Below, piece by piece: positions 1 through 32,000 of a DNA stretch of 32,000 nt. Where the stretch lies: the NCBI GenBank assembly GCA_963706795.1, contig OY970170.1:30001-62000 (forward strand), read 5' to 3'. Source of the DNA: Candidatus Saccharimonadota bacterium (GTDB lineage Bacteria > Patescibacteriota > Gracilibacteria > BD1-5 > UBA2023). A program made the position numbers and the translations under genes. Every line of letters begins with the position of its first letter. The first letter of the stretch is position 1. The notes beneath the pieces were generated by a model. That model had not been told where the DNA came from and made no database searches. It saw only the letters and a list, made by a program, of their open reading frames with translations.

Positions 1-1
1 A

Positions 2-586
2 TTTAATAATGCGGGCTACGGTCTCGCTGGTCCATTTGAAGGCACGGAAGATGCTGAGATTGTGCGTGAACTTGATACCAATCTCCTTGGTACGATGCGT
101 GTTACTCAGGCATTTATTCCGTATTTTAGAGCGAAGAAACATGGACTCTTTATCAATACAACATCCATTGGTGGGCATGTGACATTCCCATTTAATTCGG
201 TCTATCATGCAACCAAGTGGGGTCTCGAAGGATGGAGTGAGAGTCTTTGGTTTGAGCTCAGCAAATTTGGTATCGGTATAAAAACCGTGGCACCAGGAGG
301 GATTCTCACGGATTTTGCAGGACGATCCTTAGTGCTTGCTACACATGACGCATATACTGAGCTTTGAGAACAGGCGAGCAAGGTTTTCTTTAATCCAGAA
401 CGCGCAAAAAAGTACTCAACTCCCCAGCAAATCGCAGAAGTTGTCTACGAAGCAGCAACCGATGGTAAGTCAAAACTTCGCTATATCGCCGGAAAAGATG
501 CAAAGCAAGCGTATCGCTTCCGTAGAATATTCGGAGATCGATTTTTTATGAACATGATCAACAAACTCTTCTTTGGTAAGAAATAA
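2..586 (+). CDS. short-chain dehydrogenase/reductase (SDR), 5'-truncated by window edge; contains one in-frame TGA (365-367) read as Gly
   Basis: The frame of track ORF 62..367 is open from nt 2. It shows FNNAGYG (NNAG motif) and catalytic YHATK (YxxxK). Reading continues through the TGA into EQASKVFFNPERAKKYSTPQQIAEVVYEAATDGKSKLRYIAGKDAK, a typical SDR C-terminus, and ends at TAA 584-586. Confidence 0.88.
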
Positions 587-626
587 TTTGATCATCAAAA
601 AAAGATATACCATGAATAAAAAAATC

Positions 627-666
627 AAATTCGAGACCAAATGTACGGGTCTCGAATTTTTCTTTG
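627..666 (+). terminator. rho-independent terminator after the SDR gene
   Basis: 12-bp perfect stem: aaattcgagacc (627-638) pairs with ggtctcgaattt (648-659). The loop is 9 nt and a T-run follows (ttttttcttt), 40 nt after the SDR stop. Confidence 0.6.
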
Positions 667-834
667 TGATGCCCACACAGGAGTACTGCAACAACACAAA
701 AACGACAATAGTGAATAGCTCCTTTACGGCGTATACTTAAGTGGACTTGCACAACAGTTTGCGGAATTTCTGACACATGGAAGGATGAAAGAAGATGGCC
801 GACTACGGACATTTATTCGTTAAAACTTCATCCT

Positions 835-2346
835 ATGAAATATACTCGGAAATGAATCGTTGCAATTTCGATACTCTCGATTGCATCCATTTTTACACTT
901 TGAGCGAGCGCGGCGACAACCTCGACCGTGAATCTCGGTGAAACATCAGGCTTTGCCATTTTGGCCGGCACTTCCGTCACCAATATCGGAGCGAGCACAA
1001 TTACCGGAAATATTGGAGTCAATCCTGGAACTACGATCTCAGGATTTGCCCAATGAACGGTCTTCGGAACGCAACAAATCGGAAGTACTTCTGCTATGCA
1101 GGCACAGACTGATTTAAATAACGCCTATAGCGATATTAATGGACGTGCTAATCCAACAATACTTTCGAGTGACATTGGTGGCACAACGTTGACACCAGGT
1201 CTCTATCATGCAAATGCAGCATTGAGCGTTAATGGCATCGTCACACTCGACGCACAGGGTGATCCAAATGCCATATTTGTAATCCAGGCAATGGACAGTA
1301 TGAATATAGCCTCTGGAAGTCAGATCCGACTTATTGGATCAGCTCAAGCATGTAATGTGTTTTGGCAGAGTAACAATAGCGTATTCCTTGGATCGAATTC
1401 GATCAATCTTGGTAACTTTATTGCTGCCAACTCTATTTCACTTGCCAATGGTGCCCTACTCAATGGACGTGCATTATCTCGTAATGGAAGCGTGTCACTC
1501 GACACAAATACAATCAGCGTTCCTGTATGTACTCCCCAGTCTCCTTTAGGGACTCTGCGAGTTATTACCAATGTTATCAATAACAATGGTGGAAACATGA
1601 GTGCAGCCAGTTTTACAGTACGAGTTCGTTTGAACGGAAATTTTGAAGTACCAGGAAGTCCTGCTAATGGCATGATCTCTCCAGGTCTCAGTTATAGTCT
1701 CACTGGAAGTAGTACATATGTAGTCACTGTAGATAGCAATGTCTATCCTTATGCAACTGCACAATTCGGAACGGATTGTAGCGCACAGGGATCTGTATAT
1801 CTACCTGTTGGCGCAATACGTACTTGTACGATTACACTCGATGACATTGCCCCAATTGACGTATGTCCATACGGAGATTTTTCTCCAAATAAATATGACG
1901 GGCATTGTGTAGTACCCGTGATTGCTGTGGTCTCAAAGGCTATTCCAGCCGAGGTACCATTTGCAGGAAGCACGGTAACCTACACATATACGATCTCTAA
2001 TCCAGGACGTGTCGCTCTCTCAAATGTTGATATCTGAGATAACGGATGTTCGGATATCCACCCACGTTCTGGTGACATCAATCAAAACGGACTCCTCGAT
2101 ACGAATGAAGAATGGAATTATACATGTAGTACTTTTGTCAGCTATTCAAGCATGAGCACGGTTCGTGTAAGTGGTGATGCTGATGGACTCACTGCAGTAA
2201 ACACAAATTATTCATCAGTAACGGTTGCACCATATACATCAACTCCAGTTGTTGTTACACCAAGCTTCCCAAATACCGGTTTTGGTCCACGTACTACGAC
2301 TTTTATGGATCGAGCTTTCGGCATTTATAATGCACATATACATTAG
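835..2346 (+). CDS. secreted surface protein: signal peptide + DUF3494/ice-binding-like beta-helix domain + Ig-like/DUF11-like C-terminal domains, FPNTG sortase-type motif near C-terminus (4 in-frame TGA)
   Basis: ATG at 835 gives MKYTRK[TGA]IVAISILSIASIFTL[TGA]ASAATT (signal peptide). Then LGETSGFAILAGTSVTNIGASTITGNIGVNPGTTISGF...AQTDLNNAY...GGTTLTPGLY...DAQGDPNAIFVIQ...ACNVFWQ, the signature of the DUF3494 family. Track ORFs 1096..2037 and 2152..2346 are in the same frame and joined by TGA 2035-2037. FPNTG lies at 2266-2280 and the stop is TAG 2344-2346. Confidence 0.8.
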
Positions 2347-2382
2347 ATCTAAGGTATTTCCATTCTTTGATTTTGAGACTCG

Positions 2383-2997
2383 ATGATTCCACTTATTTGA
2401 ATACAAAGTCTCACGGTCTTATGGATGGTCGCTTCCACTTTTTTGCCCTGAGAGGCAATCGCCTCGGTAGGAATACAAAAAGTACGTATCATCAATATCT
2501 CACCGCAAGCTATCCCCAAATGACAGGTGATATCAAAGCCTGAGATTCCGGTGGGAATACCAATTCTTCTACGCATCCCTGCCATTAAGCTCAGCGCACG
2601 AATCGAGTCGGTATGAATCAAGCTCAATGGTGCAATGGGCACTCCGGTACTTCCGAGTAACGTAGGTTGGTATTCTCCCTGAATACGACCTGGTGAAACT
2701 GGCAGCGCGGTAATAGCAGGACACCTCGACGATCAAAAAGGCAGACCGGCAGCTTTTGCACATCTCCAAAAACTCATCATTTGAGACACAGTATTTGTAC
2801 AAGATAATCTTGGAGCCGAACACGCCTTTGTCGTTCGTCAGGTCAAACAATATGCGAGCGACGAGAATGCTGATGAAGTGTTTGCTACGAGCAAATGACA
2901 ACATCTCAATCTCATCACTTGTGCAGGTTCATGGGACGTATCTCGCAAAATCTACACCAAAAGACTGGTCATCTTCGCCGAGAGAGTCCTAGAGTAA
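2383..2997 (+). CDS. sortase family transpeptidase (peptidase C60; class E/F-like), 5-6 in-frame TGA
   Basis: Hand translation in frame 1: MIPLI[TGA]IQSLTVLWMVASTFL (membrane anchor) ...IPAIKLSARIESV[TGA]IKLNGAMGTP...NVGWYSP[TGA]IRPGETGSAVIAGHLDD (catalytic His) ...FAHLQKLII[TGA]DTVFV (conserved GD) ...LNLITCAG (TLxTC-type Cys) ...RLVIFAERVLE (Arg). Stop is TAA 2995-2997. The standard-code track shows only spurious fragments on both strands here. Confidence 0.8.
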
Positions 2998-3011
2998 AGC
3001 CGGAAGTATTT

Positions 3012-3055: not shown

Positions 3056-3793
3056 CTATTCTTCGATCTTTTCTACAAGCTTTCCCGTTCTAAACGAATA
3101 TTCATACAGCCCAGCTTTCTCCATCTGTCCGGTTGCATTCTCAATGCTGTATTTTGTAATGGTACAGCTCCTCGGTCAATCGATCTGAAAATTGACTCCA
3201 TTTGATGTAGAGGCCTTTGGATCATAGAGACCAAAGAGCGATGGATTGGTGATCGAACGATTTGAGATCGCGTCGTAGAGAAGTCGCTCACCGCTTCCCT
3301 CTTGAGCCACCGAAAAATCAATATCAAATATGGTTCCAGAAACATTGGTAATCATCCCAAGATTTACATCTCTCCTAAAATACGGATTGTAGCCAGTGGT
3401 TCCATTGGACGCGCCAGCAAGACGATCCTTAAAGTTGACTGGATATTTAGAGATAGCCTTCGTTGTACAGTCGTAGCTATAGAGCGAAATATAGCGTGCA
3501 GTAAGTCCTTTACGACTACCATAGTCTGTTACTTCATTAAAATAACGCCATCCGGAGAAAACGATATAAAAAAGATGATCGCCTCTTTTATAAAAGTATT
3601 CCGTCTGGCTACGAGTGTACTCTGCGTTGCCACGATCTGGACTCACAATCTGGAGTCGATCCATGCTTCGACCATCAGGATATGCACAGGCCTGATCTTT
3701 AGTGACTTCTTGCCCTGCAATATCCGCATAGGCAAATGAGGAGGAAGCTACAAAGCCAAGTACGAGGCTCATGAGCGTAAAAATGTATTTCAT
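3056..3793 (-). CDS. secreted hypothetical protein (signal peptide; no family recognised)
   Basis: Track ORF 3176..3826 extends through TGA 3176-3178 to TAG 3056-3058. The likely start is ATG 3791-3793, giving MKYIFTLMSLVLGFVASSSFAYA|D, a classic Sec signal. The body is rich in Y/G/S/N. Confidence 0.6.
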
Positions 3794-3856: not shown

Positions 3857-4288
3857 CTATATGGACTTAGATCGTGAAAGTTCTGCAAAAAATCCGAGGA
3901 TTTCCTCTATTTTTTGAGTCTTGTCAGGCGAAATCATTTCTTCGCAGACCATTTCTGCTCGCTCCATCGCTTCTTCGAGTTTCATTTTGCCACCTGGTGC
4001 AAGTACGACGTAGCTCACGCGAGCATCGTGCTCATTGATTTCACGGCTTACGAGACCAATTTTTTCCATTGGAAGAAGGAGTCGCGTAACACCCGAGGCA
4101 GTAAGCCCAATCTTATCAGCAAGATCAATGCGACGCATTTTTTGCTCTGGATTCTGACTGAGATTCAAAAGAATCATAAAGTCATTTGCACCGATACCAC
4201 CAAGTCGGGCATCAAATTGGCGATTCATCACCGAGGTAATCTTTGCCATCTGCAAAAAGAACTGGAGCGTAGGAGTTATTGTCTTCAT
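3857..4288 (-). CDS. MarR-family transcriptional regulator
   Basis: MKTITPTLQFFLQMAKITSVMNRQFDARL...NDFMILLNLSQNPEQKMRRIDLADKIGLTASGVTRLLLPMEKIGLVSREINEHDARVSYVVLAPGG is a winged-HTH MarR pattern. The stop is a genuine TAG at 3857-3859. I chose the start at ATG 4286-4288, the second Met of track ORF 3857..4321. Confidence 0.85.
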   Translation of the reverse strand: MKTITPTLQFFLQMAKITSVMNRQFDARLGGIGANDFMILLNLSQNPEQKMRRIDLADKIGLTASGVTRLLLPMEKIGLVSREINEHDARVSYVVLAPGGKMKLEEAMERAEMVCEEMISPDKTQKIEEILGFFAELSRSKSI

Positions 4289-4354: not shown

Positions 4355-4861
4355 TTAAATAAATGTGCGAACTGATAACCCCAGCGCACGTCCATACACG
4401 TTGCTGTGTGCATGATTACAACTCCTTTGTAAACACATCGAATCAACGATTGTCTCGCCATCGCACGACGATGTCCAAAGCGAAACTCGCTTTCCTTGAC
4501 TCACAAATCCACCGTCGTTCATATTGCGATACCCCACAATTGGCAAATCCAAAATGACTGCTTTTTCTACAGCATTTCAGCGAATAGCTGCAAATATTTT
4601 GTGCCATTCTTCGAGCGTTGGAATACTTACGCCACGATATTTCGCTTCTGTTTCTGCACCAGTAAAATTATAGAACCAATAGACTATACCATCAATTTCT
4701 TGCGACCATGCCTGCGGTGTCTTGAGCTCGGCAACTTCTGGATTTATCACGATGTCTGCTGCGGTAGGCGTATCAAAATTCTTGAGTGCGAGCTTCATTC
4801 CTGCCACTGCAAAGTGATCATCTTGCTTAATAGCCCCCTTAAATACGGATTCTATACGCAT
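4355..4861 (-). CDS. FISUMP-like (Fibrobacter succinogenes major paralogous domain-like) protein
   Basis: Track ORFs 4577..4867 and 4355..4552 are in the same frame and joined by TGA 4577-4579. Motifs: GVSIPTLEEWHKIFAAI, GYRNMNDGGFVSQGKRVSLWTSS and a C-terminal GRALGLSVRTF, which resembles the family's G.SVRC ending. Start is ATG 4859-4861 and stop is TAA 4355-4357. Confidence 0.5.
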
Positions 4862-4882: not shown

Positions 4883-5185
4883 CTACTTCCCAACTTTTGT
4901 ATGAACTCCGTTGATCGTTACGTATTGGCGATTTTTATTTTTTTCGTGCTTTCGGAGGGTTTCGGACTCGAGATCGATACCGAGGATTTCAGCGATACTG
5001 AGCAGGAAAATAAAAGTATCCGCAAGTTCCTCTCAGACATTTGACTCCTTGCGGTAGTAGGCACGGTTAGCTTCTGCAAGCTCTTCGTAGGCGTAGCAGA
5101 ATTCTTTGTGGATATCGGTGGTATTAAATCCCTTAGCGATTTTGTTTGCATAGATTTCCTTTTGCAGGGCTGCAAGATCGATCAT
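4883..5185 (-). CDS. MazG-like nucleoside triphosphate pyrophosphohydrolase (small, single domain)
   Basis: Hand translation from ATG 5183-5185: MIDLAALQKEIYANKIAKGFNTTDIHKEFCYAYEELAEANRAYYRKESNV[TGA]EELADTFIFLLSIAEILGIDLESETLRKHEKNKNRQY, ending at TAG 4883-4885. The EExxE/EELAD helices are typical of MazG/YpjD-like proteins. Track ORF 4918..5175 is a low-complexity shadow in another frame. Confidence 0.7.
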
Positions 5186-5302: not shown

Positions 5303-5719
5303 ATGAAATTGGATACCAACATGGAAGTCGTTCCTGCCCGAACAAAACAAAGATGAAGGCCTCGCGTAGCAAAAGCTCTAGAAACAGCCAAAGATGCCAC
5401 GTACAAAACACTTACCCCTCCATCCAATCAGCCATACCAAAAGCAGATTGCATATGACAAAGTAAGCGCATTCATCGACACAGGAATCCTCCTCGATGGA
5501 AAGATCCGTGGCAAGGAATTTTTTAAGGGCTACGGCTTTGTAGAATTTAGTGAATCTGCCTACGAATTTCAGGCATCAAATGTCCTTATTAACCCAAGAA
5601 GACACGACGGGTTCGAACAAATCAGGATTGGTATGAATGTCCGATTTTTAGTAACTGCGAGCAAGATAAACTCAGATGGACTCAGTGTCGAGATTGTCAT
5701 CAAAGAAATCTCCAAATAG
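5303..5719 (+). CDS. small hypothetical protein with N-terminal AT-hook (R-G-R-P, Gly encoded by TGA) and possible OB/cold-shock-like C-terminal half
   Basis: ATG at 5303 gives MKLDTNMEVVPARTKQR[TGA 5354-5356]RPRVAKALE...GKEFFKGYGFVEFSESAYEFQASNVLIN...RIGMNVRFLV..., ending at TAG 5717-5719. It is absent from the standard-code track because the TGA splits it. Confidence 0.5.
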
Positions 5720-5725: not shown

Positions 5726-6373
5726 TTATGGCTGTGTTTTTTCTCAGAGAAGCATTCGCAAATCGCGGACGTGGACATAGATAATGAGACTCAGGACCGC
5801 AGAAAAGAAGCACCAAACCGAAAACAGTGTCTCAGGATAAAAGCCGTGTGCCACAAAAAATCCCACGAGCATCGCCGTACCAAAAACACGGATCTTAAAT
5901 GAACTCGATACCATACTGCCCATGCAGGTAGTAAGAAAGTATAAAAAGAAGCTTACGAGTGGAAATGGCACAGGAACATCGTACATAATACTATTCTTCG
6001 CTATATTACAGGTCACCGGTCCAACGACACTGAGCGTAAAAAGATAGACACTCACCAAGACTCATAATCATGCAATAACTCCAATAATCTTTTTACGAAT
6101 TGGATCTTTTTCGATGAGCCAAATCGTAAATGGCACGAAAGTGGGCCAAAATATATAGGCAAAAAATACAAAGATATATGCAGCGATAGCATGTATGAGA
6201 GGCTTATCAAAAGATATCCACACGATCCCTTCAACTATTTGCTGGATTCAAAAAAACAAAGGAATAGACGCAAATGGAAGTACTGATCTTGATCGTACAT
6301 GACGAAGTGTTAGGACGCCAGCAACAATAAGCACTGTACCTGCTGTAAAGCTCGCAGTTGCAGAAAAACACAT
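5726..6373 (-). CDS. polytopic integral membrane protein (about 6 hydrophobic segments), unknown function
   Basis: One frame is open from TAG 6407-6409 down to TAA 5726-5728, containing 4 TGA. From ATG 6371-6373: MCFSATASFTAGTVLIVAGVLTL...FASIPLFF[TGA]IQQIVEGIVWISF...AAYIFVFFAYIFWPTFVPFTIWLIE... and then track ORF 5744..6058. Confidence 0.6.
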
Positions 6374-6487: not shown

Positions 6488-8980
6488 CTATTTTGTGGCG
6501 CTCACAAAAGATGCTGCGAGAAATCCGGTAAACAATTCTTTGATCTTTGCGAGGATTTCTTTGCGGGATTTTACTGAGATCTCCTTGAGTTGGACGGTTC
6601 CATTTGGTAAAAATATAGGATCCCAATTACCAATATCTCCTTTCATTTTACGTGCCTCGTATTCTTCGCGAGTAAGGGTATTGAGGGAGACATTTCCGAG
6701 TACGATACGCTTGATCGATACATTTTTTGTAGCAACTTCTTGGCCTAAACGCTTATTGAGCATATCTTGTAAGATATCCACGCCATTCTCTGTGACATCA
6801 TTATCAGCAATCTGTAAAATGACTGGACAGCGTGCACCATCTTTAATCTCTTTTGCATATGCTACATCAGTTGTCAGTTTTTGATCATACTGTTGAGCAA
6901 TATTTGCCCAAGCAGTAACGTCATTCGTTCCGCCTTTGAGCGTATGAATTCCTTCATTAAGCTCCGCCATTCGTATCGAATCAATATCACCAGCAAAAGC
7001 ACTCGAAAATGAGCTGTATGGTGTACCATCTCAATAGAGCAAGAAGTTTACAGGGATCTCATAATCAGGATCTTCAAGCCAATCTCTTAGATGAGCCTCA
7101 AGATGCTTCATCGCAATAAAAAGAACGGTTGGAATAATATGCACCATTCCGTTGGCTTTGTACATATCCATGCTACCAGAGATATCTATTGCGAAGCAAA
7201 TATCCATCTTGCGATACGTATCAGCCAATGCTTCAGTGACATTACTTTTATCGTAGAGCGATTTGGTATGAATATCGGTCGCCTCTGGATTTTGCGCTAT
7301 ATAGTCACGAACACGTCCGGTGTTCAGCCTTCATTTTTTGCGCGCGTCGAGCGTTACAAGCTCTCGCTTGTCGAGTGTTTGGATTTGTTCCAAAAAGAAC
7401 TGAACGAGCGACTCAATCATTGCTCATTCTTTGGTCAAAATATTATTCGTGATTTCCTTTCCGTTTTTTCATACGCCAGAAGACTCTAAAATCGAAGATA
7501 CATCATAGTTCTTTTTTTCAGCAAGTTTTCGCACAAGTTCTTTGGACTGCTGTGCATCTTCGGCTTCATCGACATCATCGAGAAAATCTATTTTATCCTG
7601 GATATCAGGTGATTTATGAACGGATTCTCCACTAGTTTTTGGATTTTTATCTCTAGATGGATCTGACGCATCTTTTTCTGCGTCGTCGGATGTCTTTGTA
7701 TCAGATTTTCCATTATCAGGCTCCCCATTGCCCTCTCCGGATTTTCATCCACCATTCCCTACGGTTGGATCAGGGAGATCTTGTTTAAAGAGATCCATGA
7801 TAATGCAGGCCTTTTGGATCGGCAAAAAGAGCGTACTATAAATTTTGTAACGAAGTGCTGGAGTGATATCCAAAATATGTTCACTTCACTCTCGTCCATG
7901 TGAAGCACAAAAGAGTGCAATGCAATCAATGAGCGAAATATTCGCACTAATATATGATTTTTTAGTACCCGTTTGATCGATTGCGAGACTCAAAAGCCCA
8001 AGAATAGTGGTATCTGTGGACATGTTTTGAAGTTGCCCACGCATCAGAATATACTCTCACTTTAGCGCGGTAGCACGTGCTTGGATTTTTGTATCTGAAC
8101 TTGCCTGTGTTGCCTCAAAGGCATCATCAAGCAATTTTGCAGTACGTGCCACAGAAGTTTTCCACGGATTCTTGCGTGCCCTTGTATCGTCCGCGAATAA
8201 AATATCCGAGACTACTTTGGGTAAAAAAATATCTTGGTCCTTTACCATAGCAGCACGCAGAAGGTAATACGGAAGTGCCGTCGAAAATGGCTTCGTGCTA
8301 TAATCAACCTCGTTCGTGTCGTTGATTCTAAAAGAACCATTTCCCTTGCCGACAAAGATGAGATTTTCATCATAGTCACCATTTATTGGATCAGGAATTC
8401 GATCCGCAAAGAGATTATATTTGTAAAACCCTTGGAGATGTTCGGCGCTGATATCACTTCCCGAAAACATCTCTACTTCTTTATTAACGATGATATCGTC
8501 AATGCAATTAAAGAGCGTATGGAGATGGCTTCAGATTGGGACTTTTTTATCAGTACCATAATTTAATGCAGTAGTGTGAAGCGACTCCAAAAACGCCTTC
8601 ATAGAGGCTCTGCCGGTTTTTTTGGATTCCATAAGGAGGTCGCGAAAGTGCGAGAGCTCATGGAAGAGACCAAAAAAGAGATCATTCCATGTATAGGCAA
8701 ATCCGTGTACTGCCTGTCCATTATTTTTGAGCAGATTTGCATGAAAATCCATGAGCCACTGCTGTGGAATATGGATCATCCGATCTGCTGGACTAAAAGC
8801 AAAACTCTGCCCATCTGACACCTGATACTTTACGGGCGATGGCACAGAGAGAAACATACGAAACTGCCCATCCATAGAGGCAACCTTCGCATGAAATACC
8901 CCAAGAAAATCGTCAAAATTCTCGGGAATTTTCGCCGAGTGATTGACTGACTGTGGAGCGTTTGAAACAAGAGGAGACAT
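6488..8980 (-). CDS. 830-aa HExxH metallopeptidase-like N-domain + acidic low-complexity linker + C-terminal von Willebrand factor A (MIDAS DxSGS) domain
   Basis: Track ORFs 8531..8980, 8057..8470, 7031..7228 and 6488..6970 are all in one frame. I translated every gap (7229-8056 included) and found only TGA, with no TAA or TAG. Motifs: FGLFHELSHF (HExxH); linker GEGNGEPDNGKSDTKTSDDAEKDASDPSRDKNPK...DFLDDVDEAED; VWA CFAIDISGSM and LKGGTN. The stop is a genuine TAG at 6488-6490. Confidence 0.8.
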
Positions 8981-10314: not shown

Positions 10315-10317
10315 GGA

Positions 10318-11286
10318 TTATCTCTTATAGATTACATGAATATTATATCTGCTTTGGATCTCTTCTAACTCGCAACGTTGCGCATATGAAGAATTCGGCT
10401 CGTATCACGAATTACGAATATTAAGAAAGCGAATACCTGATTTACCTGCAAGTTCAACGAGTGTTAAAAGCTGAGCAAAACTGTATGCACGAAATAGGAT
10501 ATCATTAAGAATCTTCAAAGTTCGCACGCCTGATGCACCCGCAACTTTCACAATATCGAGAAGGTCATCAAAACTCAGAACATGGCCGATATTACTGTCT
10601 CGAAATTCAATAGCACGAATCTCCATACCTCAGGCAATTTTCATAATCTCTATAAAATCCTCTTTACTCAGTATTCAAACTACAGATCATACTTCAAAAA
10701 TGAGAGTACGACTCCCCTGACTCTGACAGTGAGAAACAAAACCAAAAATACTGTCTCGAGAAGAAGGTCAAAAACCGTGAGACTTGTGAAATCTCTTCTC
10801 ATTTAACAGATCACTCGTGGCCGTATAAATAATCGCGTCTAATCCAAGCTCAGATATGAGTTTGATTTTAAATTTTGCTCATATTTCAGATCCGTGAGAC
10901 AAATTCATGCATTCGAAATAGTCATAGAATGCCCTTTTGAGCGGCTCAGAATATGGCTCATTGAACACATCATTTTCAAGTACTTGCAGCATTTCGCTGT
11001 CTGTAAGTAGGAGTCATGTAGGATACGTGTACCATTCGTACAATGGGGGCGCTCTACGGACTTCCAAGGCGTAATTTTGTATACAAAGATACAGATTTGA
11101 TTCGAGCTCTTTTGTCTTGTAATAGCTCCTATCAAGCTCTATTTGAGACTCGTCGGGGAGCATATCTAAAATCCGAGTCACAGCCTCATGAATTTCTGGC
11201 TGCGTGATAAAAGAACTATCTGGGATGATGGACGCATTTAAAATCGGGGCGAAATTTTGATTAATCATAGGAATATGATTGTTCAT
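10318..11286 (-). CDS. array member 14: short N-module/LRR family protein (322 aa, only about 3 repeat units)
   Basis: MNNHIPMINQNF...VTRILDMLPDE...AFYDYFE...KFKIKLISELGLDAIIY...IMKIA[TGA]GMEIRAIEF...VKVAGASGVRTLKI...VELAGKSGIRFLNI. Track fragments 11014..11286 and 10405..10626 are joined by TGA-only gaps that I translated. Stop is TAA 10318-10320. Confidence 0.85.
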
Positions 11287-17473: not shown

Positions 17474-17481
17474 GTGAATAT

Positions 17482-19008: not shown

Positions 19009-19102
19009 GCAGGCTTTCGTGATGATATCTTTGCGATTTTACCCTTCTTTGTAATTGCTCACAAATTATGGAGCTATTTTGTCTTATTTAAGACATCTCT
19101 CG

Positions 19103-23805: not shown

Positions 23806-23808
23806 ATT

Positions 23809-25431
23809 CTAGTATGTAAGCTCTATATTATAGCGCTCTTGTGCGGTATGAATTTCTGGTGCAAGATGGAGGAATCTCTTCTCAGTAAAGCCTTCATATA
23901 TATTTAAGTAGCGAATTCCAGCATTTCATGCAACCTCAATAAGGCGCAGTATTGAAATATCATCTAATTTCGCCAGGATTCAGGTATTATACGACAAATT
24001 AAGATGCACAATCCCTGAAGCTCCTGCAGCCTTTAAAAAGGCGAGGAGGGCTTCTCAAAAGAGGATATTTCAGAGTTTATTTTCCTCAAGACTTAGGCTT
24101 TTAAGATTGGCTTTTGGTTTTAAGGTTACGAGTTCAATGAGTCAGACAAGATCAAAATTCTGCCCAGCAGAGGTGGATATTTTAAGGTATTGCAGACCAT
24201 TTTGCACTGCTCTATGTGTAAAAAGTATCAAGTCGTCGTACGATACACGACGTGCTGGCATACATATCGCAATCCCTTTGAGTCGAGACGATCCTACTAA
24301 ATCTGCTATCTCATTAAATGCCTGAGAAGTAAGCTGATATGCAAAATCCCTATCATTAATATCTAAGTTCGGTACGTCAGATGCGGTTACCGCAGTAACT
24401 AACTCCACGAGTTCCTCAGACTCTAGATGAAACTTCGGATTTCCCACAAAAGTAAGTCATTCTACTTTTGATGCAGTTATAGCATTCACAACTGTAATAA
24501 TTTGATCCACAGAAGAGCCACCTTCTATAAAGAGAGGCACGTTGAGATTTCGTAAACCAGCCTCACGAGCAGTGCTAAACAGTTCTTGATATGTCCTCTT
24601 AAATTTAGCCCCATCAATTCAACGAAATCAAAAATGCTGATTTACCTGTCTAGGCAGGGCAATATTCTCCACGCCGGACTCACCAATGGCCTTCACAAGC
24701 TCCAAGATCATGGTGCTATCGAGATATTGTATGAGTTTAAATGCCGAAAGATCGAGATGTTTCACTCATGCTTTACCTAGGAGCGCAAGAGATTGCATAC
24801 ACGCAACAAATACTGCCTGTACATGTTCGGAGTCTTTCGCACCACCTGAAAGAACGAGTATTTTTCTGACATTTTCTTTCAGACCTACTCTTAGAGATGC
24901 AACGCCATTTAATGCCTGTAATGCTTCATTGAATTGCTCAGCATTACTAAAATCGATGTTTCCCCATCAGAGAAATAACGATTCGACTCACCGCTCACAC
25001 ATGAGCTCAAAAAATCAAAACTCTCGCAAGAGTTTGATACGCATCTCTGTATGAAACTTGGCGTCATTTTGGTCTACTAGGTAGTCAAGATATGCATCAA
25101 GATTTTTAGCAGCTTCAGTCGGTATTCAATTTTTGTGGAGGATTTCATTATCAATCAGCTCCAAAATTCGCTCATCTGACATAACAAGTCTTCTCTGATA
25201 TTCAGCAAAAGGACATCGCACTTCTGATTTTCTAAATCATTCGACCGATTCCTTGAGTTTATTCGCAAGCATTTCGCCCTTTTCGAGTGCTGTTAAAAAT
25301 CACGCCTTGCCCTCACTAGGCAAAAGCTCGAGAATCCCATTTACATTTCGACTGATTTTTTGGTCAGCAAAACTATATCCTGAAAGTGCAGGAGTATTTT
25401 GGTCGGGTGCGGTGTGGTTGAGGCCTGGCAT
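23809..25431 (-). CDS. array member 5: divergent N-module/LRR family protein (540 aa, about 15 in-frame TGA)
   Basis: ATG 25429-25431 gives MPGLNHTAPDQNTPALSGYSFADQKISRNVNGILELLPSE... All 541 codons were translated by hand without TAA or TAG. The standard-code track shows only one fragment over 60 aa (24142..24447). Motifs: LGKA[TGA]VKHLDLS, AREAGLRNLNV, LKAAGASGIVHLNLSYN, IEVA[TGA]NAGIRYLNI. Stop is TAG 23809-23811. Confidence 0.85.
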
Positions 25432-25435
25432 TGCT

Positions 25436-27004
25436 TTAAATAAGAAGACGGAGATTGAATTTTTCGGCGATTACCCTTATCTCAGGCAAAAGGTGATTGA
25501 ATCGGCCAGCGAGATTACCGCCAGAGAAGTCCAAAAATCATATTCCAGCAATTCCAGCAGTATTTAAAAACTCAAGTAATGAGTGATCGTGTAACAAATC
25601 TCCAATATATCCGTGATTAAATTTAAGACTTCTCACTCCTGACTTCCCTGCTAATTGAATAAAACCCATTAAGCCAGCCATATCTTCTGTGAGATAAATA
25701 AAACTGAGGTCTATATTTTTTAGTCACACAGATCCTCCATCCTTAAAGAGATCCATCCAATCCGCTATTTCAAAACCGGTAGATATTAGACTCTCAGGTA
25801 ATTTGATATCTCGCACTCAATTTTTACTAGCAATATTGGCAAATTCGATGAGATCTGGATATGTAATGTGTGAATACGTATTCAGAAATATATTGAGATT
25901 GAGCGAGGTGTGACCCGAAGCACCTACTGCTCTCACAAACTCAGCAAAATCCTGCGTCGAAGTGGTAGCTGCAAAATGATAATCACTCATCTTTATTTTG
26001 TTTCTGAGACCAGATGTAGCAGCAGTGTTTAGGAGAGTTATTGCCTCTGTAATAGTATATTCTCGGTGTGTCCCGTCAGCCATATTATCTCCGAAGGTTA
26101 TACTCTGTAATCATGATGCACCCGCAGTACGAAGGAGTTGTTGGATATGCACAATGGGCGTATCTCGTTTAACGAGTGAGTTCTCAGTGAGAATGAGCTC
26201 ACGAATACCAGCTTTCCCAGCTGCTTCTACAAACTCTAAAAGCTCTTCAAATTCTCAAAAACTATCCTGTAAGTCATTCGATGACAAATCAAGCACTGTA
26301 ATCCCAGATGCCCCAATTACTTTTACGATCTGTATCCATTCTTTGGGAGTATATGAAAAGCATTTTAAGAGGGCAAGAGCCTCAACATTTGAATGCTTTA
26401 AAACACCAATAATCTTCATAAGATATGGAGCATCCATGCCATCTTCAACAGCAATGGTTGGCATCATTGCATCAGTAAGTTGCCCGATTACAGACATGAA
26501 TTGCTCCATGTATTCAAACTGTACTTCAATGCTCTTTTTTGGAGCAAAAGAGGGATAATACTCACTCTCAAAAACCAGATCCTCGAGCCTAAACTCAGTC
26601 ATGATCTTTTGCTTCATATTTTCATAAAAGCCTGTATCATCCTTGCTCACAATGCTTGATATGTAAGCCTCGAGAGCTTCTCAAAGGTCTGTTTGAATAC
26701 CATTCTTATGGAGGATATTCTCATGAAGTATCTTTTGGACTGCAGACACATTCAAGACAGTCAGTCTTTCGCTGTAGCCAGAGAAATTATAACTTCTTTG
26801 AGTTTCTTTGACCTTGAGAATCTCTTCAGTGAGCCTAGAGGCAAGCCCTTTGATATGCTCGAGGGATGAAGCAATTTCTGCATGGTGATTCTCTGGAATG
26901 AGCTCGAGAATCCTATGAACGCTTTCGTTCATTTTGTGATCAGCAAAATATCCCTGATCTTTAGGATTCAATGAGTCGAGAGCGGAATTATTAATCGAGG
27001 ACAT
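25436..27004 (-). CDS. array member 4: N-module/LRR family protein (522 aa), close paralog of member 3
   Basis: MSSINNSALDSLNPKDQGYFADHKMNESVHRILELIPEN... Fragments 26681..27004, 26255..26650 and 25817..26083 are in one frame. I translated the gaps and the 127-codon tail (...IQLAGKSGVRSLKF...NTAGIAGI[TGA]FLDFS...RFNHLLPEIRVIAEKFNLRLLI). Stop is TAA 25436-25438. Confidence 0.87.
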
Positions 27005-27027
27005 TAGTCGGTCATAAGAATTTGGAG

Positions 27028-28572
27028 ATTATATTTCTCCGTAATTGCTTGTATTTCTCACAAAAGATGATTGAATCGATCCGAAAGATGACTATCAGAA
27101 AGATCTAAAAATCATATTCCGGAAGCTCCCGATGCAGTTAAAAATTCCAGGAATGAATCATCATCTAGCAAATCTCCAATACTTCTATTGCCAAATGTAA
27201 GACTTCTCACTCCTGACTTACCGGCTAATTGCACAAATCGTATTAAATCATTGCTATTTCCGAAGAGATGAATCGAGCCCAGGTATATGTTTCTTAAGGA
27301 TGTAGAGCCGTGTTCAAATGGTTTTATTAACTCTGCTATTTCAAAGCCAATAGATGCTAACATCACTGGTAATGTAATATCTCGCACTCCATTCTTACCA
27401 GCAATGTACATGAATTGGATAATGTCTTTGTATGATATTTCTTGGTATTTGCCGAGAAATATATTGAAATTAAGTGAAGTGAGACCCGAACTACCGACCA
27501 CCCTGACAAACTCGGCAAAATCCTGATGCGAAGTTGTGGCGGCAAAATGATAATCATCTAATCTGATTTCATTTCTGAGACCAGATTCAGCTACTACCTT
27601 TATCGTGTCTATAGCATCCAGATGAGTAAATACTGGCCTAAGATGATGATCAATAAAGTGCAAAAAATCTATCTTTTGAAGTCCTGCTTCACCTGCAGTA
27701 CGAAAGAGTTGTTGAATATTTTCGAGAGGAGTATCATTTGTGATCAATCAGTTCTCATTAAGGATGAGCTCGCGAATACCGGCTTTTCCAGCCTCTCTTA
27801 CAAATTCTAAAAGCTCTTCGAATTCTCAAAAGCTCTTCTGCAAAGCATTTGATGATACATCAAAAATTTTGATCCCTGCTGCACCGACTGCTTTTACGAT
27901 TTGGATCCATTCTTGAGGAGTATACGAAAAACATTTTATGAGGGCGAGCGCCTCAACATTCGAATACCTTAGAACACCAATAATCTCCGCGAGGTATTCA
28001 GCATCCATGCCATCTTCAACAGCAATGGTTGGCATCATTTCATCAGTAAGTGATCCAATTTTAGTAGTGAATTGCTCCATATATTGAAATGGTACCTCAA
28101 TCCGCTTTTTTCGAGCAAAAGATGGATAATACTCGCCCTCAAAAACTAGGTCCTCAAGTGCAAATTCAGTCATAATCTTCTGGCGCATATTTTCGTAGAA
28201 TCCTGCATCATCTTTGCTCGCAATGCTTGATACATAGTTTTCAAAAGCTTCTCAGAGTGGGGTTTGAATACCATCCTGGCAAAGGATTTTTGTATCGAGC
28301 GTCTTTCGAATTTCATCTACGCTTAAAAGAGTCAGTTTCTCACTATAGTCCAAAAAGTTATAGTACTTTTTGGTCATTTTGACTTTGAGGATTTCCTCTT
28401 TGAGTCGAGCACCAAGTACTTGATTGTGCTCAACAGATGTTACAACATCAGCAATACCAGACTGCGGAATGAGCTCGAGAATTCTATGAACACTTTCATT
28501 CATTTTTGGATCAGCAAAATACCCCTGATCTTTAGGATCTGATGAGTCAAGAGCGAGATGATTGAGCGACAT
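27028..28572 (-). CDS. array member 3: N-module/LRR family protein (514 aa)
   Basis: MSLNHLALDSSDPKDQGYFADPKMNESVHRILELIPQS... Fragments 28252..28572, 27826..28188 and 27112..27747 are in one frame and I translated the gaps (FVREAGKAGIRELILNEN[TGA]LITND). The tail ...TASGASGI[TGA]FLDLSDSHLSDRFNHLLVRNTSNYGEI ends at TAA 27028-27030. Confidence 0.88.
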
Positions 28573-28596
28573 AATTTATTGAGAACAAATAATTAT

Positions 28597-30150
28597 TTAT
28601 GAGTTATTGCTCACACTTGCAGCAATCGTCACATTGCTAGACCGAAGGATTTCACGGAAACTGTCTATGTCTCATTGAGAGTAGCACGCAGCGAGTCACG
28701 GTAGCAGGACTCACTCTCCTGACATATCTAAGTACTTCAGCCCATTTTCACCCGCGACAATGACGAGTGAGGAAAAAGCCGGCAAGGAAAAAATATCGTG
28801 CATACCATTCCATGCAAAACTTAATCTCTTGATGCCTGCACAACCAACAGACCTCACAATATCAATAAAATGCTCCATTTCTTGGGTATAATCATTATCA
28901 TATCCACTCGAATTCACACTCAAATCCCTGATCCCAGATTCTCAGGCAATTTCTATAAATCGCTTAAATCCATCAAATCCAAGCACAGACGAGAGTGATT
29001 CGCTATTAAAAACAAAACGCTTAATGCCAGATGTGCCTGCTGTTTTGACCATCAAAAAGAGATCGTCTGGAGTCAGATGAGCATTCACCATCTCAGTGGA
29101 TGAGAGATTAAAATCGGTAATACCGGAGTTACCTGCAACACGAACGAGCTCTATGAATTGATTAAAATTCATAATGTCCTCAAAAGAGTTAGAAGACATA
29201 TCCAGACGCTTCATGCCCGCATGTCAGTATGCGCGGACTATATCAAATATTTGTTCCGCATTAAATCGGCAACTCAATCAAACTCAGAAGTTCGATGCAA
29301 AACTCAATTGTTGCATGCCGAGCTCGTCTGCTATACGTATATAGTCATAAACCTCCTCCAAAGTCCATTCCGCGAGCGGATACATCGATCAATCTATTGA
29401 TGGTATACCATATTCTTTTGCTGCGTGCATAAGCATTACAGCTTGTTGGTAAGTGAATCTATCTCTTCATACGACCCGAACACGTTTCGGCAGATACGGA
29501 CCTTTGCTCAGTAATTCTAAATGTGCCTTTATTTGCTCAAAATGTACCGTGGGCCTTGAAGAGTAGGAAAGACTCACAAAATCATGCGGGGAAGTTGTCT
29601 GCTCTCGTATCTTTGACGCCATCGCGTCATCGCTGTCTTTTGCGGTCATCCTGATACTCACATCCGAAGGCAATACGTAGATATCTTCAGAATTTGCCAG
29701 AGTCGCGTTACTCGGTCTCTCATATACCGCGTCCAAGAGCTTAAATTCTCGGATCACTTTGCGTATCATGCCTAGCGCAATCTCGCCTCAGTCTATTTGT
29801 AAACATTGTATATATTCACGGAATGCATTTCATACAGGAGTTTCAACACCTCGAGTATTGAGAATTTCCTGATTAAGCAGATCCATAATCTCTTCCTCTG
29901 AGAGTAAAAGTCGCTCTGGATAATCACGGAAGTCATACGAAGACTGCTCGAGCTTGAGCGCATCTACGGCACTCTGTAATCGAGCGGTTATCTCATGCAG
30001 TTGCTCAAATTGAGCACTGAGCACACTACTCTCCTCGACTGGAATAAGCTCAAGAATCTGGTGAACATTCGCACTAATTTTTGGATCAGTAAAATACCCC
30101 TGATCTTTAGGATTTGATGAGCCGAGTACGGAGTGGTTGAGACCTGGCAT
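28597..30150 (-). CDS. array member 2: N-module/LRR family protein (517 aa)
   Basis: ATG 30148-30150 gives MPGLNHSVLGSSNPKDQGYFTDPKISANVHQILELIPVE... Fragments 29830..30150, 29467..29769, 28942..29214 and 28711..28923 are in one frame. I translated all gaps and found TGA only; RAY[TGA]HAGMKRLDMSSN is present. Stop is TAA 28597-28599. Confidence 0.88.
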
Positions 30151-31721
30151 TAGTCTATACTAAGATACATATTGAATTTTTGCGAAATTTCGGCGATTTT
30201 GTCAGAGAGACCTTCAAAGAGTTGACCGAAACCGTTATCTTCAAGATTCAAATGTCTTATTCATGCACTTCCGGCCGCGATTAGAAATTCGAGGAATGAG
30301 TAGTGATCGAATAGACCATCAAGTGCATTATCCGAGAGGTTCAGACTTCGAATCCCTGATGTACCTGCGAGTTGTACAAATTTTATCAAATGGACTGCAT
30401 CAAAATGAGTACTAAGACCATTTCATGAAAGATTTAGGCTTTTGAGCGAACAGGAAGACTCGAACTCTATAAGGTTCATAAAATCTTCGCGATCAAAAAG
30501 GTATTCTAATTCACCAGACGAAAAATTGAGATCTCGGACACCATTGTTTGCCGCAGTATGTGCGAATGCGATAAATTTTTTGCTGGATAGTAATTCGTAA
30601 ACACTGCTTTCTCTCCCCATATACAACGAGGTTATACCCGAGATGCCACTGAGTCGTGCAAGCTCGATAAATTCTTGATCTGACAGCACAGATGTTAGAT
30701 CATAACTCATAATATACGGCCACCTGAGACCTGATTCGCCCGCAGTTCTGACAATCGAAAGAACCTCCGAAGCACTATATTCTCGAGCATCATCACCCAC
30801 TCCATCACTGATATTTAAACAGAGAAGTCCGGAATTACCTGCAACACGCAATAGTTCATGGATTTTTTCGATGGGTAGCCTTATTTTAATGAGCCGATTA
30901 TAATCCAGATTTAATTGGCGAATACCTGAAGTCCCCGCTACTCGAACCAGCTCGATCAGATCATCAAAGTCTCAAAAACTCTTATCTAGATCATTATTCG
31001 AGATCTCGAGAGTATGCATTCCTGACTCACCAACGACCTGTACAATCGTAATCCATTCCTGAGCACGAAAAGAGAGATTACCTGGCATAGTGATCGACAA
31101 AGCAGAGCAATTTACATCTTTTAAAAGCGAAATAGTCTCCACGAGACGGTTCAATCCGAATGTGTTTTCAAATGTAAAACTGAGTGCGACTTCATGTGCT
31201 ATCTCTTGCAAGAAGGTTTCAGAATCAGCAATATTCTCAAGCTGTATATTCACTGGCTCATCCGAAGGCATATTCAGATAATCTTCACCCTCAAAAACCA
31301 AATCCTCGAGAGCAAACTCAGTCATAATCTTTTGTCTCATGCTCTGTCGAAGCCCTCAATTATCATGAGCAAGAATAGTATTTACGTAGGCCTCTAAAGC
31401 CTCTCAGAGCGGAGTTTGCATGCCGTCTTTTCGCAAAATACGCGTCTCGAGCATATTTTGTACCTCACTAGAACTCAGAAGTGCGAGACGTTCACTATAG
31501 TCAGAGAAATTATAGTGAGCCTGGGATTTTTTAAGTTCAATCACTTCTTGCCTGACTTTGTCTGCAAAAGACTCCAAAGTTTGAAGTGACGAAGAAATGC
31601 CAGCAACATTGGATGATGGAATCAGGTTAAGGATACGACTGATATTTTCTTGGACCCTTGAGTCAGCAAAGTTCCCGACTGCGGGCTCTATGGATTCGGG
31701 GGTAAGATTATTAAGCGCCAT
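30150..31721 (-). CDS. array member 1: N-module/LRR family protein (523 aa)
   Basis: ATG 31719-31721 gives MALNNLTPESIEPAVGNFADSRVQENISRILNLIPSS... Fragments 31404..31721, 30972..31340 and 30423..30851 are in one frame. I translated the gaps and the 91-codon tail (VQLAGTSGIRSLNLSDN, IAAGSA[TGA]IRHLNLEDN) down to TAA 30150-30152, which shares one nucleotide with the ATG of member 2. Confidence 0.88.
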
Positions 31722-31724
31722 ATG

Positions 31725-31838
31725 CTAAAAGATGAATTGCATGCCGTAAGATTGTGCGATTGTTTTTATATCGGAGAAATACCCTGTGGATTGGGTGTTA
31801 TTTTGGGGAGAAGGTGCGAAAGAAGAGAGACGAGACAT
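31725..31838 (-). pseudogene. collapsed 37-codon mini-member of the array (family N-terminus fused to family C-terminal tail)
   Basis: ATG 31836-31838 gives MSRLSSFAPSPQNNTQSTGYFSDIKTIAQSYGMQFIF, ending at TAG 31725-31727. The stretch QSTGYFSDIK resembles DQGYFADPK of members 2-4. IAQSYGMQFIF resembles the tail IIQSYGMQLVY of member 7. Confidence 0.4.
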
Positions 31839-31845
31839 CTAGTCT

Positions 31846-32000
31846 TTAATCAAAAGTAAGCTGCATGCGGTACTTAGCAGCGATTGCATACATGCGAGAT
31901 ACATGTTCTGCTGACATTGCGGCGGGCCCATACCTGGCTCAGAGCTTAAGAACACCGATTCACGCGCATCAAGCGGCTTCTATAATTGCAATAGAGGCAT
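31846..32000 (-). CDS. C-terminal end of a further array member (5' part beyond window edge)
   Basis: The frame is open from the window edge: ...ASIAIIEAA[TGA]CA[TGA]IGVLKL[TGA]ARYGPAAMSAEHVSRMYAIAAKYRMQLTFD, ending at TAA 31846-31848. It carries the AGxAGI..L.L unit and a family-type tail (compare KHQMKLTYG in member 8). Confidence 0.7.

What the first reader, a model, noticed from the sequence alone, without database searches (positions are those of the whole stretch)
1..32000. TGA is a sense codon for glycine: a genetic-code-25 (Gracilibacteria/Absconditabacteria-type) genome
Directly visible in the sequence:
- With TAA and TAG as the only stops, the fragmented six-frame track collapses into about 27 intact genes with sensible start/stop spacing.
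- Every join between fragments that I translated contains TGA and never TAA or TAG.

In-frame TGA sits on columns that are glycine in recognisable motifs:
- sortase LII[TGA]DTVFV (conserved GD), at 2782-2784
- AT-hook R[TGA]RP, at 5354-5356
- family motif F-G-L-D: KVIEDF[TGA]LTN at 15535-15537 and LIQEF[TGA]LDN at 9898-9900, where eight siblings use a normal Gly codon
- LRR motif A-G-x-S-G-I: RTA[TGA]ISGIK at 13110-13112 and KIA[TGA]GMEIR at 10630-10632

TGG is still used for Trp. This argues for Gly (code 25) rather than Trp (code 4). Any standard-code annotation of this contig would call it a pseudogene graveyard and miss everything below.
Basis: partly seen in the sequence, partly recalled or inferred. 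Interest (0 to 1): 0.75.

Follow-up and report, generated by a model that had tools for sequence, protein, structure and literature searches.

The report
UGA-as-glycine genome of a Gracilibacteria relative

Summary
With only TAA and TAG as stops, the window resolves into 25 genes plus one cut gene. Coding density is 96%. There are 147 in-frame TGA codons, and stops are TAA 18 and TAG 7.

Three independent tests assign TGA to glycine and not tryptophan:
- Among 15 tandem paralogs, siblings carry Gly at TGA columns 5.5 times above background. The same test recovers the standard meaning for 59 of 61 sense codons.
- In alignments with outside homologs of the sortase and DUF6629, all 4 TGA codons in conserved columns fall on Gly. 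TGG falls on Trp in 5 of 5.
- In RsgA, just outside the window on the same contig, TGA sits on Gly of the GTPase DTPG motif and two further Gly positions of solved RsgA structures.

The nearest genome found is a "Candidatus Gracilibacteria" MAG (RsgA 52% identical), which is also TGA-sense. The source contig is 1.27 Mb.

tRNA-Gly(UCA) and loss of RF2 could not be tested. CGA and CGG still mean Arg, so the extra Absconditabacteria changes are absent.

This is a new member of a known kind (code 25). Most of the window is a tandem array of at least 16 leucine-rich-repeat paralogs with no known function. That family matched only 24 of 1.84 billion protein-cluster representatives.

The parts
2..586 (+). 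3' part of a short-chain dehydrogenase gene (cut by the window start); 1 in-frame TGA; stop TAA
   Evidence: Pfam adh_short E 7e-24. The full 269-aa gene is visible on the overlapping contig L001.
835..2346 (+). Ice-binding-like (DUF3494) surface protein, 503 aa; 4 in-frame TGA; C-terminal 'FPNTG'; stop TAG
   Evidence: Pfam Ice_binding E 7e-50. The TGA in 'GFAQxTVFGT' aligns with Gly in PDB 6eio and 8x0z, and with Asn in 5uyt domain 2.
2383..2997 (+). Sortase, 204 aa; 7 in-frame TGA, including 2782-2784 (LIIxDTVFV)
   Evidence: Pfam Sortase E 7.5e-22. Across 29 homologs, TGA columns 78, 100 and 134 are Gly in 28, 28 and 25. PDB 4g1j and 3rbi have Gly at 2782-2784.
3056..3793 (-). Protein of 245 aa with no family match and a hydrophobic N-terminus (likely a signal peptide, judged by eye); 1 TGA
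   Evidence: Translation; no Pfam hit.
3857..4288 (-). MarR-family regulator, 143 aa; no TGA. This gene was used to trace the source contig.
   Evidence: Pfam MarR E 1.8e-9. The exact protein is on Logan contig ERR12037365_1461874 and on an NCBI/ENA contig of 1,267,896 bp.
4355..4861 (-). Protein of 168 aa with only a weak, below-cut-off match to Fib_succ_major; 1 TGA
4883..5185 (-). MazG-like protein, 100 aa (weak match); 1 TGA in 'NVxEELAD'
5303..5719 (+). Protein of 138 aa with no family match; TGA at 5354-5356 in 'KQRxRPRVAK' (an AT-hook-like RGRP if TGA is Gly)
   Evidence: Coordinates verified. No Pfam match even at E <= 1, so this site is consistent with Gly but is not evidence for it.
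5726..6373 (-). DUF6629 membrane protein, 215 aa; 4 in-frame TGA
   Evidence: Pfam DUF6629 E 3e-23. Across 91 homologs, TGA column 104 is Gly in 90 and column 42 is Gly 58 / Ala 32.
6488..8980 (-). 830-aa protein with an HELSH (HExxH-like) motif and a C-terminal vWA-like 'DICFAIDISGSM'; 8 TGA
   Evidence: Translation; no Pfam hit. The motif reading is by eye only.
9034..31721 (-). Tightly packed tandem array of 15 complete paralogs of 316-540 aa, with gaps of -17 to +94 bp. Each has a helical N-terminal domain of about 150 aa, leucine-rich repeats with the motif A-G-x-S-G-I-[KR]-x-L, and a conserved C-terminal tail. They carry 119 of the 147 in-frame TGA codons.
   Evidence: Alignments; gene coordinates; junctions. 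Sibling test: TGA gives Gly at 5.55x background. Only weak LRR hits in Pfam.
31846..31998 (-). C-terminal end of a 16th paralog that runs off the window; 3 TGA in 'EAAxCAxIGVLKLx', which matches A-G-x-x-G-I if TGA is Gly
   Evidence: Translation.

Best explanation
The window is chromosomal DNA of an uncultivated, small-genome bacterium of the Gracilibacteria/Absconditabacteria radiation (NCBI 'Candidatus Gracilibacteria'; GTDB class JAEDAM01 in the sense of the gTranslate preprint). It uses translation table 25: UGA is read as glycine, UGG remains tryptophan, and only UAA and UAG terminate.

Shown here:
- TGA is an abundant in-frame codon.
- It sits on glycine columns.
- No gene needs it as a stop.

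Inferred from what is established for this clade, not shown here:
- Decoding is by a dedicated tRNA-Gly with anticodon UCA.
- It is made possible by loss of release factor 2.
For: (1) ORF collapse is specific to TGA. ORFs of at least 100 aa total 22,110 aa with TGA as sense, 8,037 aa with standard stops, and 11,188 / 13,556 aa with TAG / TAA as sense. This is far above shuffles. The result is 96.3% coding density, 147 in-frame TGA in 10,268 codons, and stops TAA 18 / TAG 7.

(2) Sibling test on 15 paralogs. At TGA positions the other paralogs carry Gly 29% of the time, 5.55x background. That is comparable with GGC (34%) and GGA (46%). The same test returns the standard amino acid for 59 of 61 sense codons and gives TGG as Trp at 18.6x. 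In the first version of the test, Trp is 0.7% at TGA columns against a background of 0.4%.

(3) Outside homologs. Sortase TGA columns are Gly in 28/29, 28/29 and 25/29. DUF6629 columns are Gly in 90/91 and 58/91. In columns at least 70% conserved, TGA falls on Gly 4 of 4 and TGG on Trp 5 of 5.

(4) Solved structures. In RsgA, on the same contig 100% identical to window 1-14288, TGA aligns to Gly of DTPG and to two other Gly positions in the Thermotoga and E. coli proteins. The sortase GD motif is matched. The ice-binding protein matches Gly in 2 of 3 structures.

(5) Relatives. The best RsgA match in 185,579 species genomes is a 'Candidatus Gracilibacteria bacterium' MAG at 52% identity; the next best are 30-36%. 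That locus is also TGA-sense, with 13,285 aa against 4,382 aa under standard stops and a 2,882-aa ORF holding 68 TGA. TGA and Gly codons interchange between the two RsgA orthologs.

(6) Family homologs stored under a code-4 translation read 'AWDSWIR' or 'AWESWIR' where the motif is A-G-x-S-G-I-R. A homolog in NCBI nr from a Candidatus Gracilibacteria MAG reads Gly there.

(7) Amino-acid composition. Gly rises from 5.6% to 7.1% if TGA is Gly. Trp would rise from 0.5% to 2.0% if TGA were Trp.

(8) Literature. UGA = Gly is established for these lineages, with GC content of 0.21-0.53 (PMC8629427, PMC4032931). Genome sizes are about 1.3 Mb and prfB is absent (PMC6851277).
Against: - No tRNA gene is present in the window or in L001, so tRNA-Gly(UCA) was not seen.
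- prfB absence could not be checked.
- Placement rests on one protein (RsgA, 52% identity) and on record titles. It is not a phylogeny.
- The source genome itself was not among the species representatives searched.
- About half of the TGA codons lie in variable columns where no amino acid can be inferred. A minority of sites with another or an ambiguous decoding cannot be excluded from sequence alone.
Confidence: 0.93

Rival explanations
1. TGA encodes tryptophan (translation table 4), as in Mycoplasmatales and several insect endosymbionts.
For: One public gene-calling pipeline stores this contig's proteins with Trp at every TGA. Coding-density heuristics cannot tell table 4 from table 25 (preprint 10.64898/2026.05.24.727570). 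TGG is rare here, at 0.53% of codons.
Against: No conserved TGA column is Trp-dominated. Gly dominates at 28/29, 28/29, 25/29 and 90/91. The sibling test gives Gly at 5.55x background, while TGG gives Trp at 18.6x. TGA falls on the GTPase DTPG glycine. Reading TGA as Trp turns the repeat motif A-G-x-S-G-I into 'AWxSWI'.
Confidence: 0.02
2. The standard code applies. The TGA codons would then be real stops in a region of pseudogenes, or sites of selenocysteine insertion or programmed read-through.
For: Gene calls on the NCBI/ENA copy of the contig are fragments of 80-185 aa that end at TGA. That is how the region looks under table 11.
Against: There are 147 in-frame TGA and no in-frame TAA or TAG across 25 reading frames of up to 830 codons, and coding density is 96%. 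Protein similarity continues in frame across the TGA codons to outside homologs. TGA positions are conserved as Gly. The same pattern occurs in two other genomes. At 14 per 1000 codons, the density is far beyond any selenoprotein usage (my own knowledge).
Confidence: 0.01
3. Mixed decoding: TGA is mostly glycine but also terminates some genes or is read ambiguously, for example by wobble overlap between tRNA-Gly(UCA) and UGG/Trp decoding.
For: The Codetta paper notes the potential for ambiguous translation from U34 wobble in UGA = Gly / UGG = Trp systems (PMC8629427). Roughly half of the TGA sites are in variable columns and are uninformative.
Against: Every gene has a TAA or TAG close to the conserved C-terminal end of its family. 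The TGA codons just after the conserved tail of paralogs 9 and 10 align with a Gly codon in paralog 8 (translations, by eye). TGG columns are cleanly Trp, 5 of 5.
Confidence: 0.04

Closest known systems
Translation table 25 in Gracilibacteria (BD1-5) and Absconditabacteria (SR1): UGA = Gly (Campbell 2013 and Rinke 2013, as cited in PMC8629427; Hanke 2014, PMC4032931)
   Same: TGA is an abundant in-frame codon on Gly columns. TGG is Trp. Only TAA and TAG are stops. The genome is small (1.27-Mb contig). GC content of 40.7% lies within the reported range of 0.21-0.53. The nearest relative found is a Candidatus Gracilibacteria MAG.
   Different: Nothing in the code itself differs. The Trp reassignment of CGA/CGG predicted for Absconditabacteria and some Gracilibacteria (PMC8629427) is not seen: CGA (71 tested positions) and CGG (25) behave as Arg in the sibling test. 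tRNA-Gly(UCA) and RF2 loss were not verified for this genome.
Translation table 4: UGA = Trp in Mycoplasmatales, Entomoplasmatales, Hodgkinia, Zinderia, Nasuia, Stammera and some Eggerthellaceae
   Same: UGA is a sense codon, ORFs collapse in the same way, the genome is small, and heuristic pipelines give it the same label.
   Different: The amino acid is glycine and not tryptophan.
Closed Gracilibacteria (BD1-5) genome from an oil-degrading community (Sieber 2019, PMC6851277)
   Same: Genome of about 1.3 Mb, alternative code, a sortase is present, many proteins of unknown function, and one locus under pressure to diversify.
   Different: That genome has 28.9% GC, and its variable locus is a single gene with PTD nonamer repeats. 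Here the GC content is 40.7% and the striking locus is a tandem array of at least 16 whole-gene LRR paralogs.

Membership tests
Genetic code 25 (UGA = Gly) bacterium | TGA occurs in frame inside conserved protein-coding genes, and only TAA/TAG terminate | tested here: met
   147 in-frame TGA in 25 genes; stops TAA 18 / TAG 7; 96.3% coding density. The ORF gain is specific to TGA.
Genetic code 25 (UGA = Gly) bacterium | TGA codons align with glycine columns of homologs | tested here: met
   Sibling test gives Gly at 5.55x background, with 59 of 61 control codons correct. Outside homologs give Gly at 28/29, 28/29, 25/29 and 90/91. In conserved columns, 4 of 4 are Gly. RsgA DTPG and two more Gly positions match.
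Genetic code 25 (UGA = Gly) bacterium | TGG remains the tryptophan codon | tested here: met
   TGG gives Trp at 18.6x background in siblings and in 5 of 5 conserved outside columns.
Genetic code 25 (UGA = Gly) bacterium | tRNA with anticodon UCA carrying glycine identity elements (G1:C72, C2:G71, G3:C70, U73; criteria in PMC8629427) | not testable with these tools
   There are no tRNA genes in the window or L001. The rest of the 1.27-Mb contig could not be fetched.
Genetic code 25 (UGA = Gly) bacterium | No release factor 2 gene (prfB) | not testable with these tools
   This needs the whole genome. Only about 38 kb (the window plus L001) was available.
Gracilibacteria/Absconditabacteria clade (GTDB class JAEDAM01: orders BD1-5 and Absconditabacterales) | Phylogenetic placement inside the clade | tested here: inconclusive
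   The best RsgA relative is a 'Candidatus Gracilibacteria bacterium' MAG at 52% identity, against 30-36% for the next hits. That locus is also TGA-sense. A family homolog, MDD2916741.1, is from a Candidatus Gracilibacteria MAG. No marker-gene tree was made.
Absconditabacteria-type extended code (also CGA/CGG = Trp, predicted in PMC8629427) | CGA and CGG align with Trp columns and are rare | tested here: not met
   CGA has 100 codons and CGG has 28. The sibling test gives Arg for both, at 4.5x and 4.15x.
Genetic code 4 (UGA = Trp) | TGA codons align with tryptophan columns | tested here: not met
   Trp is 0.7% at TGA columns against a background of 0.4%. No conserved TGA column is Trp-dominated.

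The most novel reading that the evidence does not exclude
The genetic code itself is ordinary for this clade. The array that fills 23 kb of the window may be something new. It holds at least 16 tandem paralogs, each with an unassigned helical N-terminal domain, leucine-rich repeats of the A-G-x-S-G-I-[KR] type and a conserved tail.

On this reading it is a lineage-restricted, fast-diversifying repertoire. It would be used by UGA = Gly episymbionts to bind or manipulate their host cells, and it has stayed hidden from family databases because public pipelines either truncate these genes at TGA or write Trp into the motif glycines.

What supports it:
- Only 24 of 1.84 billion cluster representatives match the N-terminal domain.
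- A second tandem array, with at least 7 members, exists in another TGA-rich MAG.
- The predicted N-domain fold has no PDB relative.
Probability: 0.3. Interest if true: 0.5.

Novelty: new member of a known kind. Interest (0 to 1): 0.25.

Why it matters
There is no new biology in the code, but there is a practical consequence. The same genome is held in public collections in two wrong forms.
- One copy is a set of fragments truncated at TGA.
- The other is full-length proteins with tryptophan at all 147 glycine sites in this window.

Either form corrupts homology searches, family building and structure prediction for this lineage. For example, the repeat motif AGxSGIR is stored as AWxSWIR. Re-translating with table 25 recovers a dense, ordinary gene set. 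It also exposes a large lineage-specific LRR gene family that could bear on how these host-dependent bacteria interact with their partners.

Tried and rejected
- A word-indexed homolog search with one G-substituted LRR paralog found nothing. This was probably a prefilter limit, since the exhaustive profile search later found 24 representatives.
I used TGA-free N-terminal segments instead.
- Looking up an 80-aa TGA-truncated fragment, to reach the NCBI record of the source genome, failed. The accession and full genome stayed out of reach, so tRNA-Gly(UCA) and prfB remain untested.
- AlphaFold model of the family's N-terminal domain: mean pLDDT 73, all-helical core. It has no PDB fold relative; the best Foldseek E-value is 0.2 and TM-scores are below 0.3. 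No function could be assigned.
- Pfam gives only sub-threshold LRR hits for the paralogs, and nothing for the 138-aa, 245-aa and 830-aa proteins.
- Code 4, pseudogenes or selenocysteine, and the Absconditabacteria CGA/CGG changes were considered and rejected on the column tests.
- A phage or plasmid origin was considered and set aside. The contig is 1.27 Mb and carries the housekeeping gene RsgA next to the window.
Full report
**What the window contains**

The window is 32,000 bases with 40.7% GC and no tRNA gene.

ORFs of at least 100 aa total the following amounts under different stop sets:

| Stop set | Total aa in ORFs of at least 100 aa |
|---|---|
| Standard three stops | 8,037 |
| TGA as sense | 22,110 |
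| TAG as sense | 11,188 |
| TAA as sense | 13,556 |

Fifty base shuffles read with TGA as sense give a mean of 3,863 aa and a longest ORF of at most 249 aa. The window gives 22,001 aa and a longest ORF of 835 aa. The effect is therefore real and specific to TGA.

With TAA and TAG as the only stops I obtain 25 genes plus the C-terminal end of one more at the right edge:
- 10,268 codons and 96.3% coding density.
- 147 in-frame TGA codons, which is 14.3 per 1000 and 20% of all glycine codons if TGA is Gly.
- Stop codons TAA 18 and TAG 7.

One correction: between 3056 and 5185 the true genes are on the minus strand. They are a 245-aa protein with no family match, a MarR regulator, a 168-aa protein with only a weak family match, and a MazG-like protein. 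The long plus-strand ORFs there read like antisense translation.

Gene content by Pfam:
- A short-chain dehydrogenase (partial).
- An ice-binding-like DUF3494 protein.
- A sortase.
- MarR.
- DUF6629.
- Weak matches to MazG and Fib_succ_major.

An 830-aa protein and two small proteins have no family match. The rest of the window, 9034-31721 on the minus strand, is a tandem array of 15 complete paralogs.

**Which amino acid TGA encodes**

Test 1, internal.
- I aligned the 15 paralogs and asked, for every codon, which amino acid the other paralogs carry in the same column.
- The method returns the standard meaning for 59 of 61 sense codons, so it works.
- For TGA (101 positions) it returns Gly at 5.55 times background. 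Siblings carry Gly 29% of the time, against 34% for GGC and 46% for GGA.
- TGG returns Trp at 18.6 times background. CGA and CGG return Arg.
- In the first version of the test, Trp is 0.7% at TGA columns against a background of 0.4%.

Test 2, outside homologs.
- I queried with the sortase and DUF6629 joined together and X at each TGA. This found 29 sortases and 91 DUF6629 proteins.
- Sortase TGA columns 78, 100 and 134 are Gly in 28, 28 and 25 of the 29 homologs.
- DUF6629 column 104 is Gly in 90 of 91. Column 42 is Gly 58 / Ala 32.
- The remaining TGA sites lie in variable columns.
- Restricted to columns at least 70% conserved, TGA falls on Gly 4 of 4 and TGG on Trp 5 of 5. Other codons agree with the standard code at 102 of 117 positions.

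Test 3, solved structures.
- The sortase site at 2782-2784 aligns with the Gly of 'vGD' in PDB 4g1j and 3rbi.
- The ice-binding site aligns with Gly in 2 of 3 structures.
- RsgA lies on the same contig just outside the window. All three TGA codons in its aligned region fall on Gly of the Thermotoga and E. coli proteins, including the DTPG motif of the GTPase.

Composition agrees. Gly rises from 5.6% to 7.1% if TGA is Gly. Trp would rise from 0.5% to 2.0% if TGA were Trp.

The column evidence decides the question.

**Where the window comes from**

The MarR protein has no TGA, so any gene caller predicts it identically.
- It is found on a 26,672-bp Logan contig from run ERR12037365. That contig (L001) is 100% identical to window 1-14288 and extends about 6 kb further.
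- It is also found on an NCBI/ENA contig of 1,267,896 bp.

The scan of one genome per species did not contain this genome.
- The best RsgA relative is 52% identical: JAXLZO010000001.1, 'MAG: Candidatus Gracilibacteria bacterium isolate STL-PAT4', on a 1.28-Mb contig.
- Every other hit is 30-36% identical.
- That locus shows the same TGA-sense signature: 13,285 aa against 4,382 aa under standard stops, and one ORF of 2,882 aa with 68 TGA.
- Between the two RsgA orthologs, TGA and Gly codons interchange. Five L002 TGA codons lie opposite window Gly, two window TGA codons lie opposite L002 Gly, and one site is TGA in both.

Comparison with the literature:
- UGA = Gly is established for Gracilibacteria (BD1-5) and Absconditabacteria, with GC content of 0.21-0.53 (PMC8629427; PMC4032931).
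- A closed BD1-5 genome is 1.34 Mb and lacks prfB (PMC6851277).
- GTDB groups the table-25 orders in class JAEDAM01, which holds a few hundred genomes (preprint 10.64898/2026.05.24.727570).
- Codetta also predicted CGA/CGG = Trp in Absconditabacteria and CGG = Trp in some Gracilibacteria (PMC8629427). Here both codons are common (100 and 28) and behave as Arg.

**What could not be tested**

The two molecular hallmarks need the whole genome, which I could not fetch:
- A tRNA-Gly with anticodon UCA.
- Absence of RF2.

No tRNA gene lies in the window or L001. Placement rests on one protein and on record titles. It is not a tree.

**State of the public records**

- Proteins from the Logan contig are stored with Trp at every TGA. 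The W versions of the sortase and DUF6629 are exact hits and the G versions are absent.
- Gene calls on the NCBI/ENA contig are fragments of 80-185 aa that end at TGA.
- This fits the coding-density heuristic described in the gTranslate preprint, which separates table 11 from 'UGA recoded' but labels the latter as table 4.
- I cannot tell whether the depositor's own annotation used table 11 or whether the collection re-called the genes.

**The paralog array (noticed in passing, partly followed up)**

- There are 15 complete genes of 316-540 aa plus a 16th cut by the window end. All are on the minus strand, with junctions of -17 to +94 bp.
- Each has three parts:
  - a conserved N-terminal domain of about 150 aa;
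  - a variable number of leucine-rich repeats, roughly 30 residues each by eye, with the motif A-G-x-S-G-I-[KR]-x-L;
  - a conserved C-terminal tail.
- Pfam gives only sub-threshold LRR hits.
- A profile of the N-terminal domain, searched against 1.84 billion cluster representatives, matches 24 proteins. Five are TGA-truncated fragments from this genome. The rest are proteins of 110-530 aa from a few other assemblies.
- One of these is MDD2916741.1 from a Candidatus Gracilibacteria MAG. Several others were translated with code 4, so their repeats read 'AWDSWIR' or 'AWESWIR'. This is a further, independent sign that TGA is Gly in the relatives.
- A second tandem array is on GCA_020049755.1 contig JAHZTO010006590.1, directly downstream of an 856-aa protein with weak nSTAND3/AAA hits. 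Seven genes there match the N-domain profile.
- The AlphaFold model of the N-domain has mean pLDDT 73 and an all-helical core. It has no PDB fold relative; the best E-value is 0.2.
- No function can be assigned. A host-interaction repertoire is a guess, based on the LRR architecture and on the host-dependent lifestyle described for this clade (PMC11452946 abstract).

**Verdict**

- This is a further genome of a known kind (code 25), not a new code and not an artefact.
- Interest is low for the code itself. The mistranslated public records and the rare LRR family are worth a note.

Noticed in passing
window 9034-31721 (-) plus 31846-31998 (-); L009 3334-12553: There is a tandem array of at least 16 paralogs, each with an unassigned helical N-terminal domain, A-G-x-S-G-I-[KR] leucine-rich repeats and a conserved tail. 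Only 24 of 1.84 billion cluster representatives match the N-domain. A second array with at least 7 members lies in another TGA-rich MAG, next to a STAND-like NTPase. The predicted N-domain fold has no PDB relative.
   Followed up: partly
whole window; proteins P0002-P0004, P0125-P0130: The same genome is stored in public protein collections in two wrong translations. The Logan copy has full-length proteins with Trp at every TGA. The NCBI/ENA 1.27-Mb contig has fragments of 80-185 aa that end at TGA. Relatives' repeats therefore read 'AWESWIR' instead of 'AGESGIR'.
   Followed up: yes
window 835-2346 (+) and 2383-2997 (+): The ice-binding-like (DUF3494) protein ends with 'SFPNTGFGPRTTT...' and is followed after about 36 bp by a sortase gene. 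FPNTG may be an LPXTG-like sorting signal, but the tail after it is short and not clearly hydrophobic.
   Followed up: no
window 6488-8980 (-): An 830-aa protein without any Pfam match has an HELSH (HExxH-like) motif near the N-terminus, an acidic low-complexity linker, and a C-terminal 'DICFAIDISGSM' that resembles a vWA MIDAS motif. It sits directly downstream of the LRR array on the same strand.
   Followed up: no
window, all genes (CGA 100 codons, CGG 28 codons): CGA and CGG behave as arginine in the sibling test. The CGA/CGG-to-Trp reassignment predicted for Absconditabacteria and some Gracilibacteria does not apply to this genome.
   Followed up: yes
window 3020-5284 (+): Long plus-strand ORFs appear once TGA is treated as sense, but they are antisense shadows of four real minus-strand genes (245 aa, MarR, 168 aa, MazG-like). 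Treating TGA as sense inflates spurious ORFs as well as real ones.
   Followed up: yes
L002 12232-20877 (+): The related Candidatus Gracilibacteria MAG carries an open reading frame of more than 2,882 codons with 68 in-frame TGA, next to a tRNA-Lys(UUU). I did not examine what it encodes.
   Followed up: no
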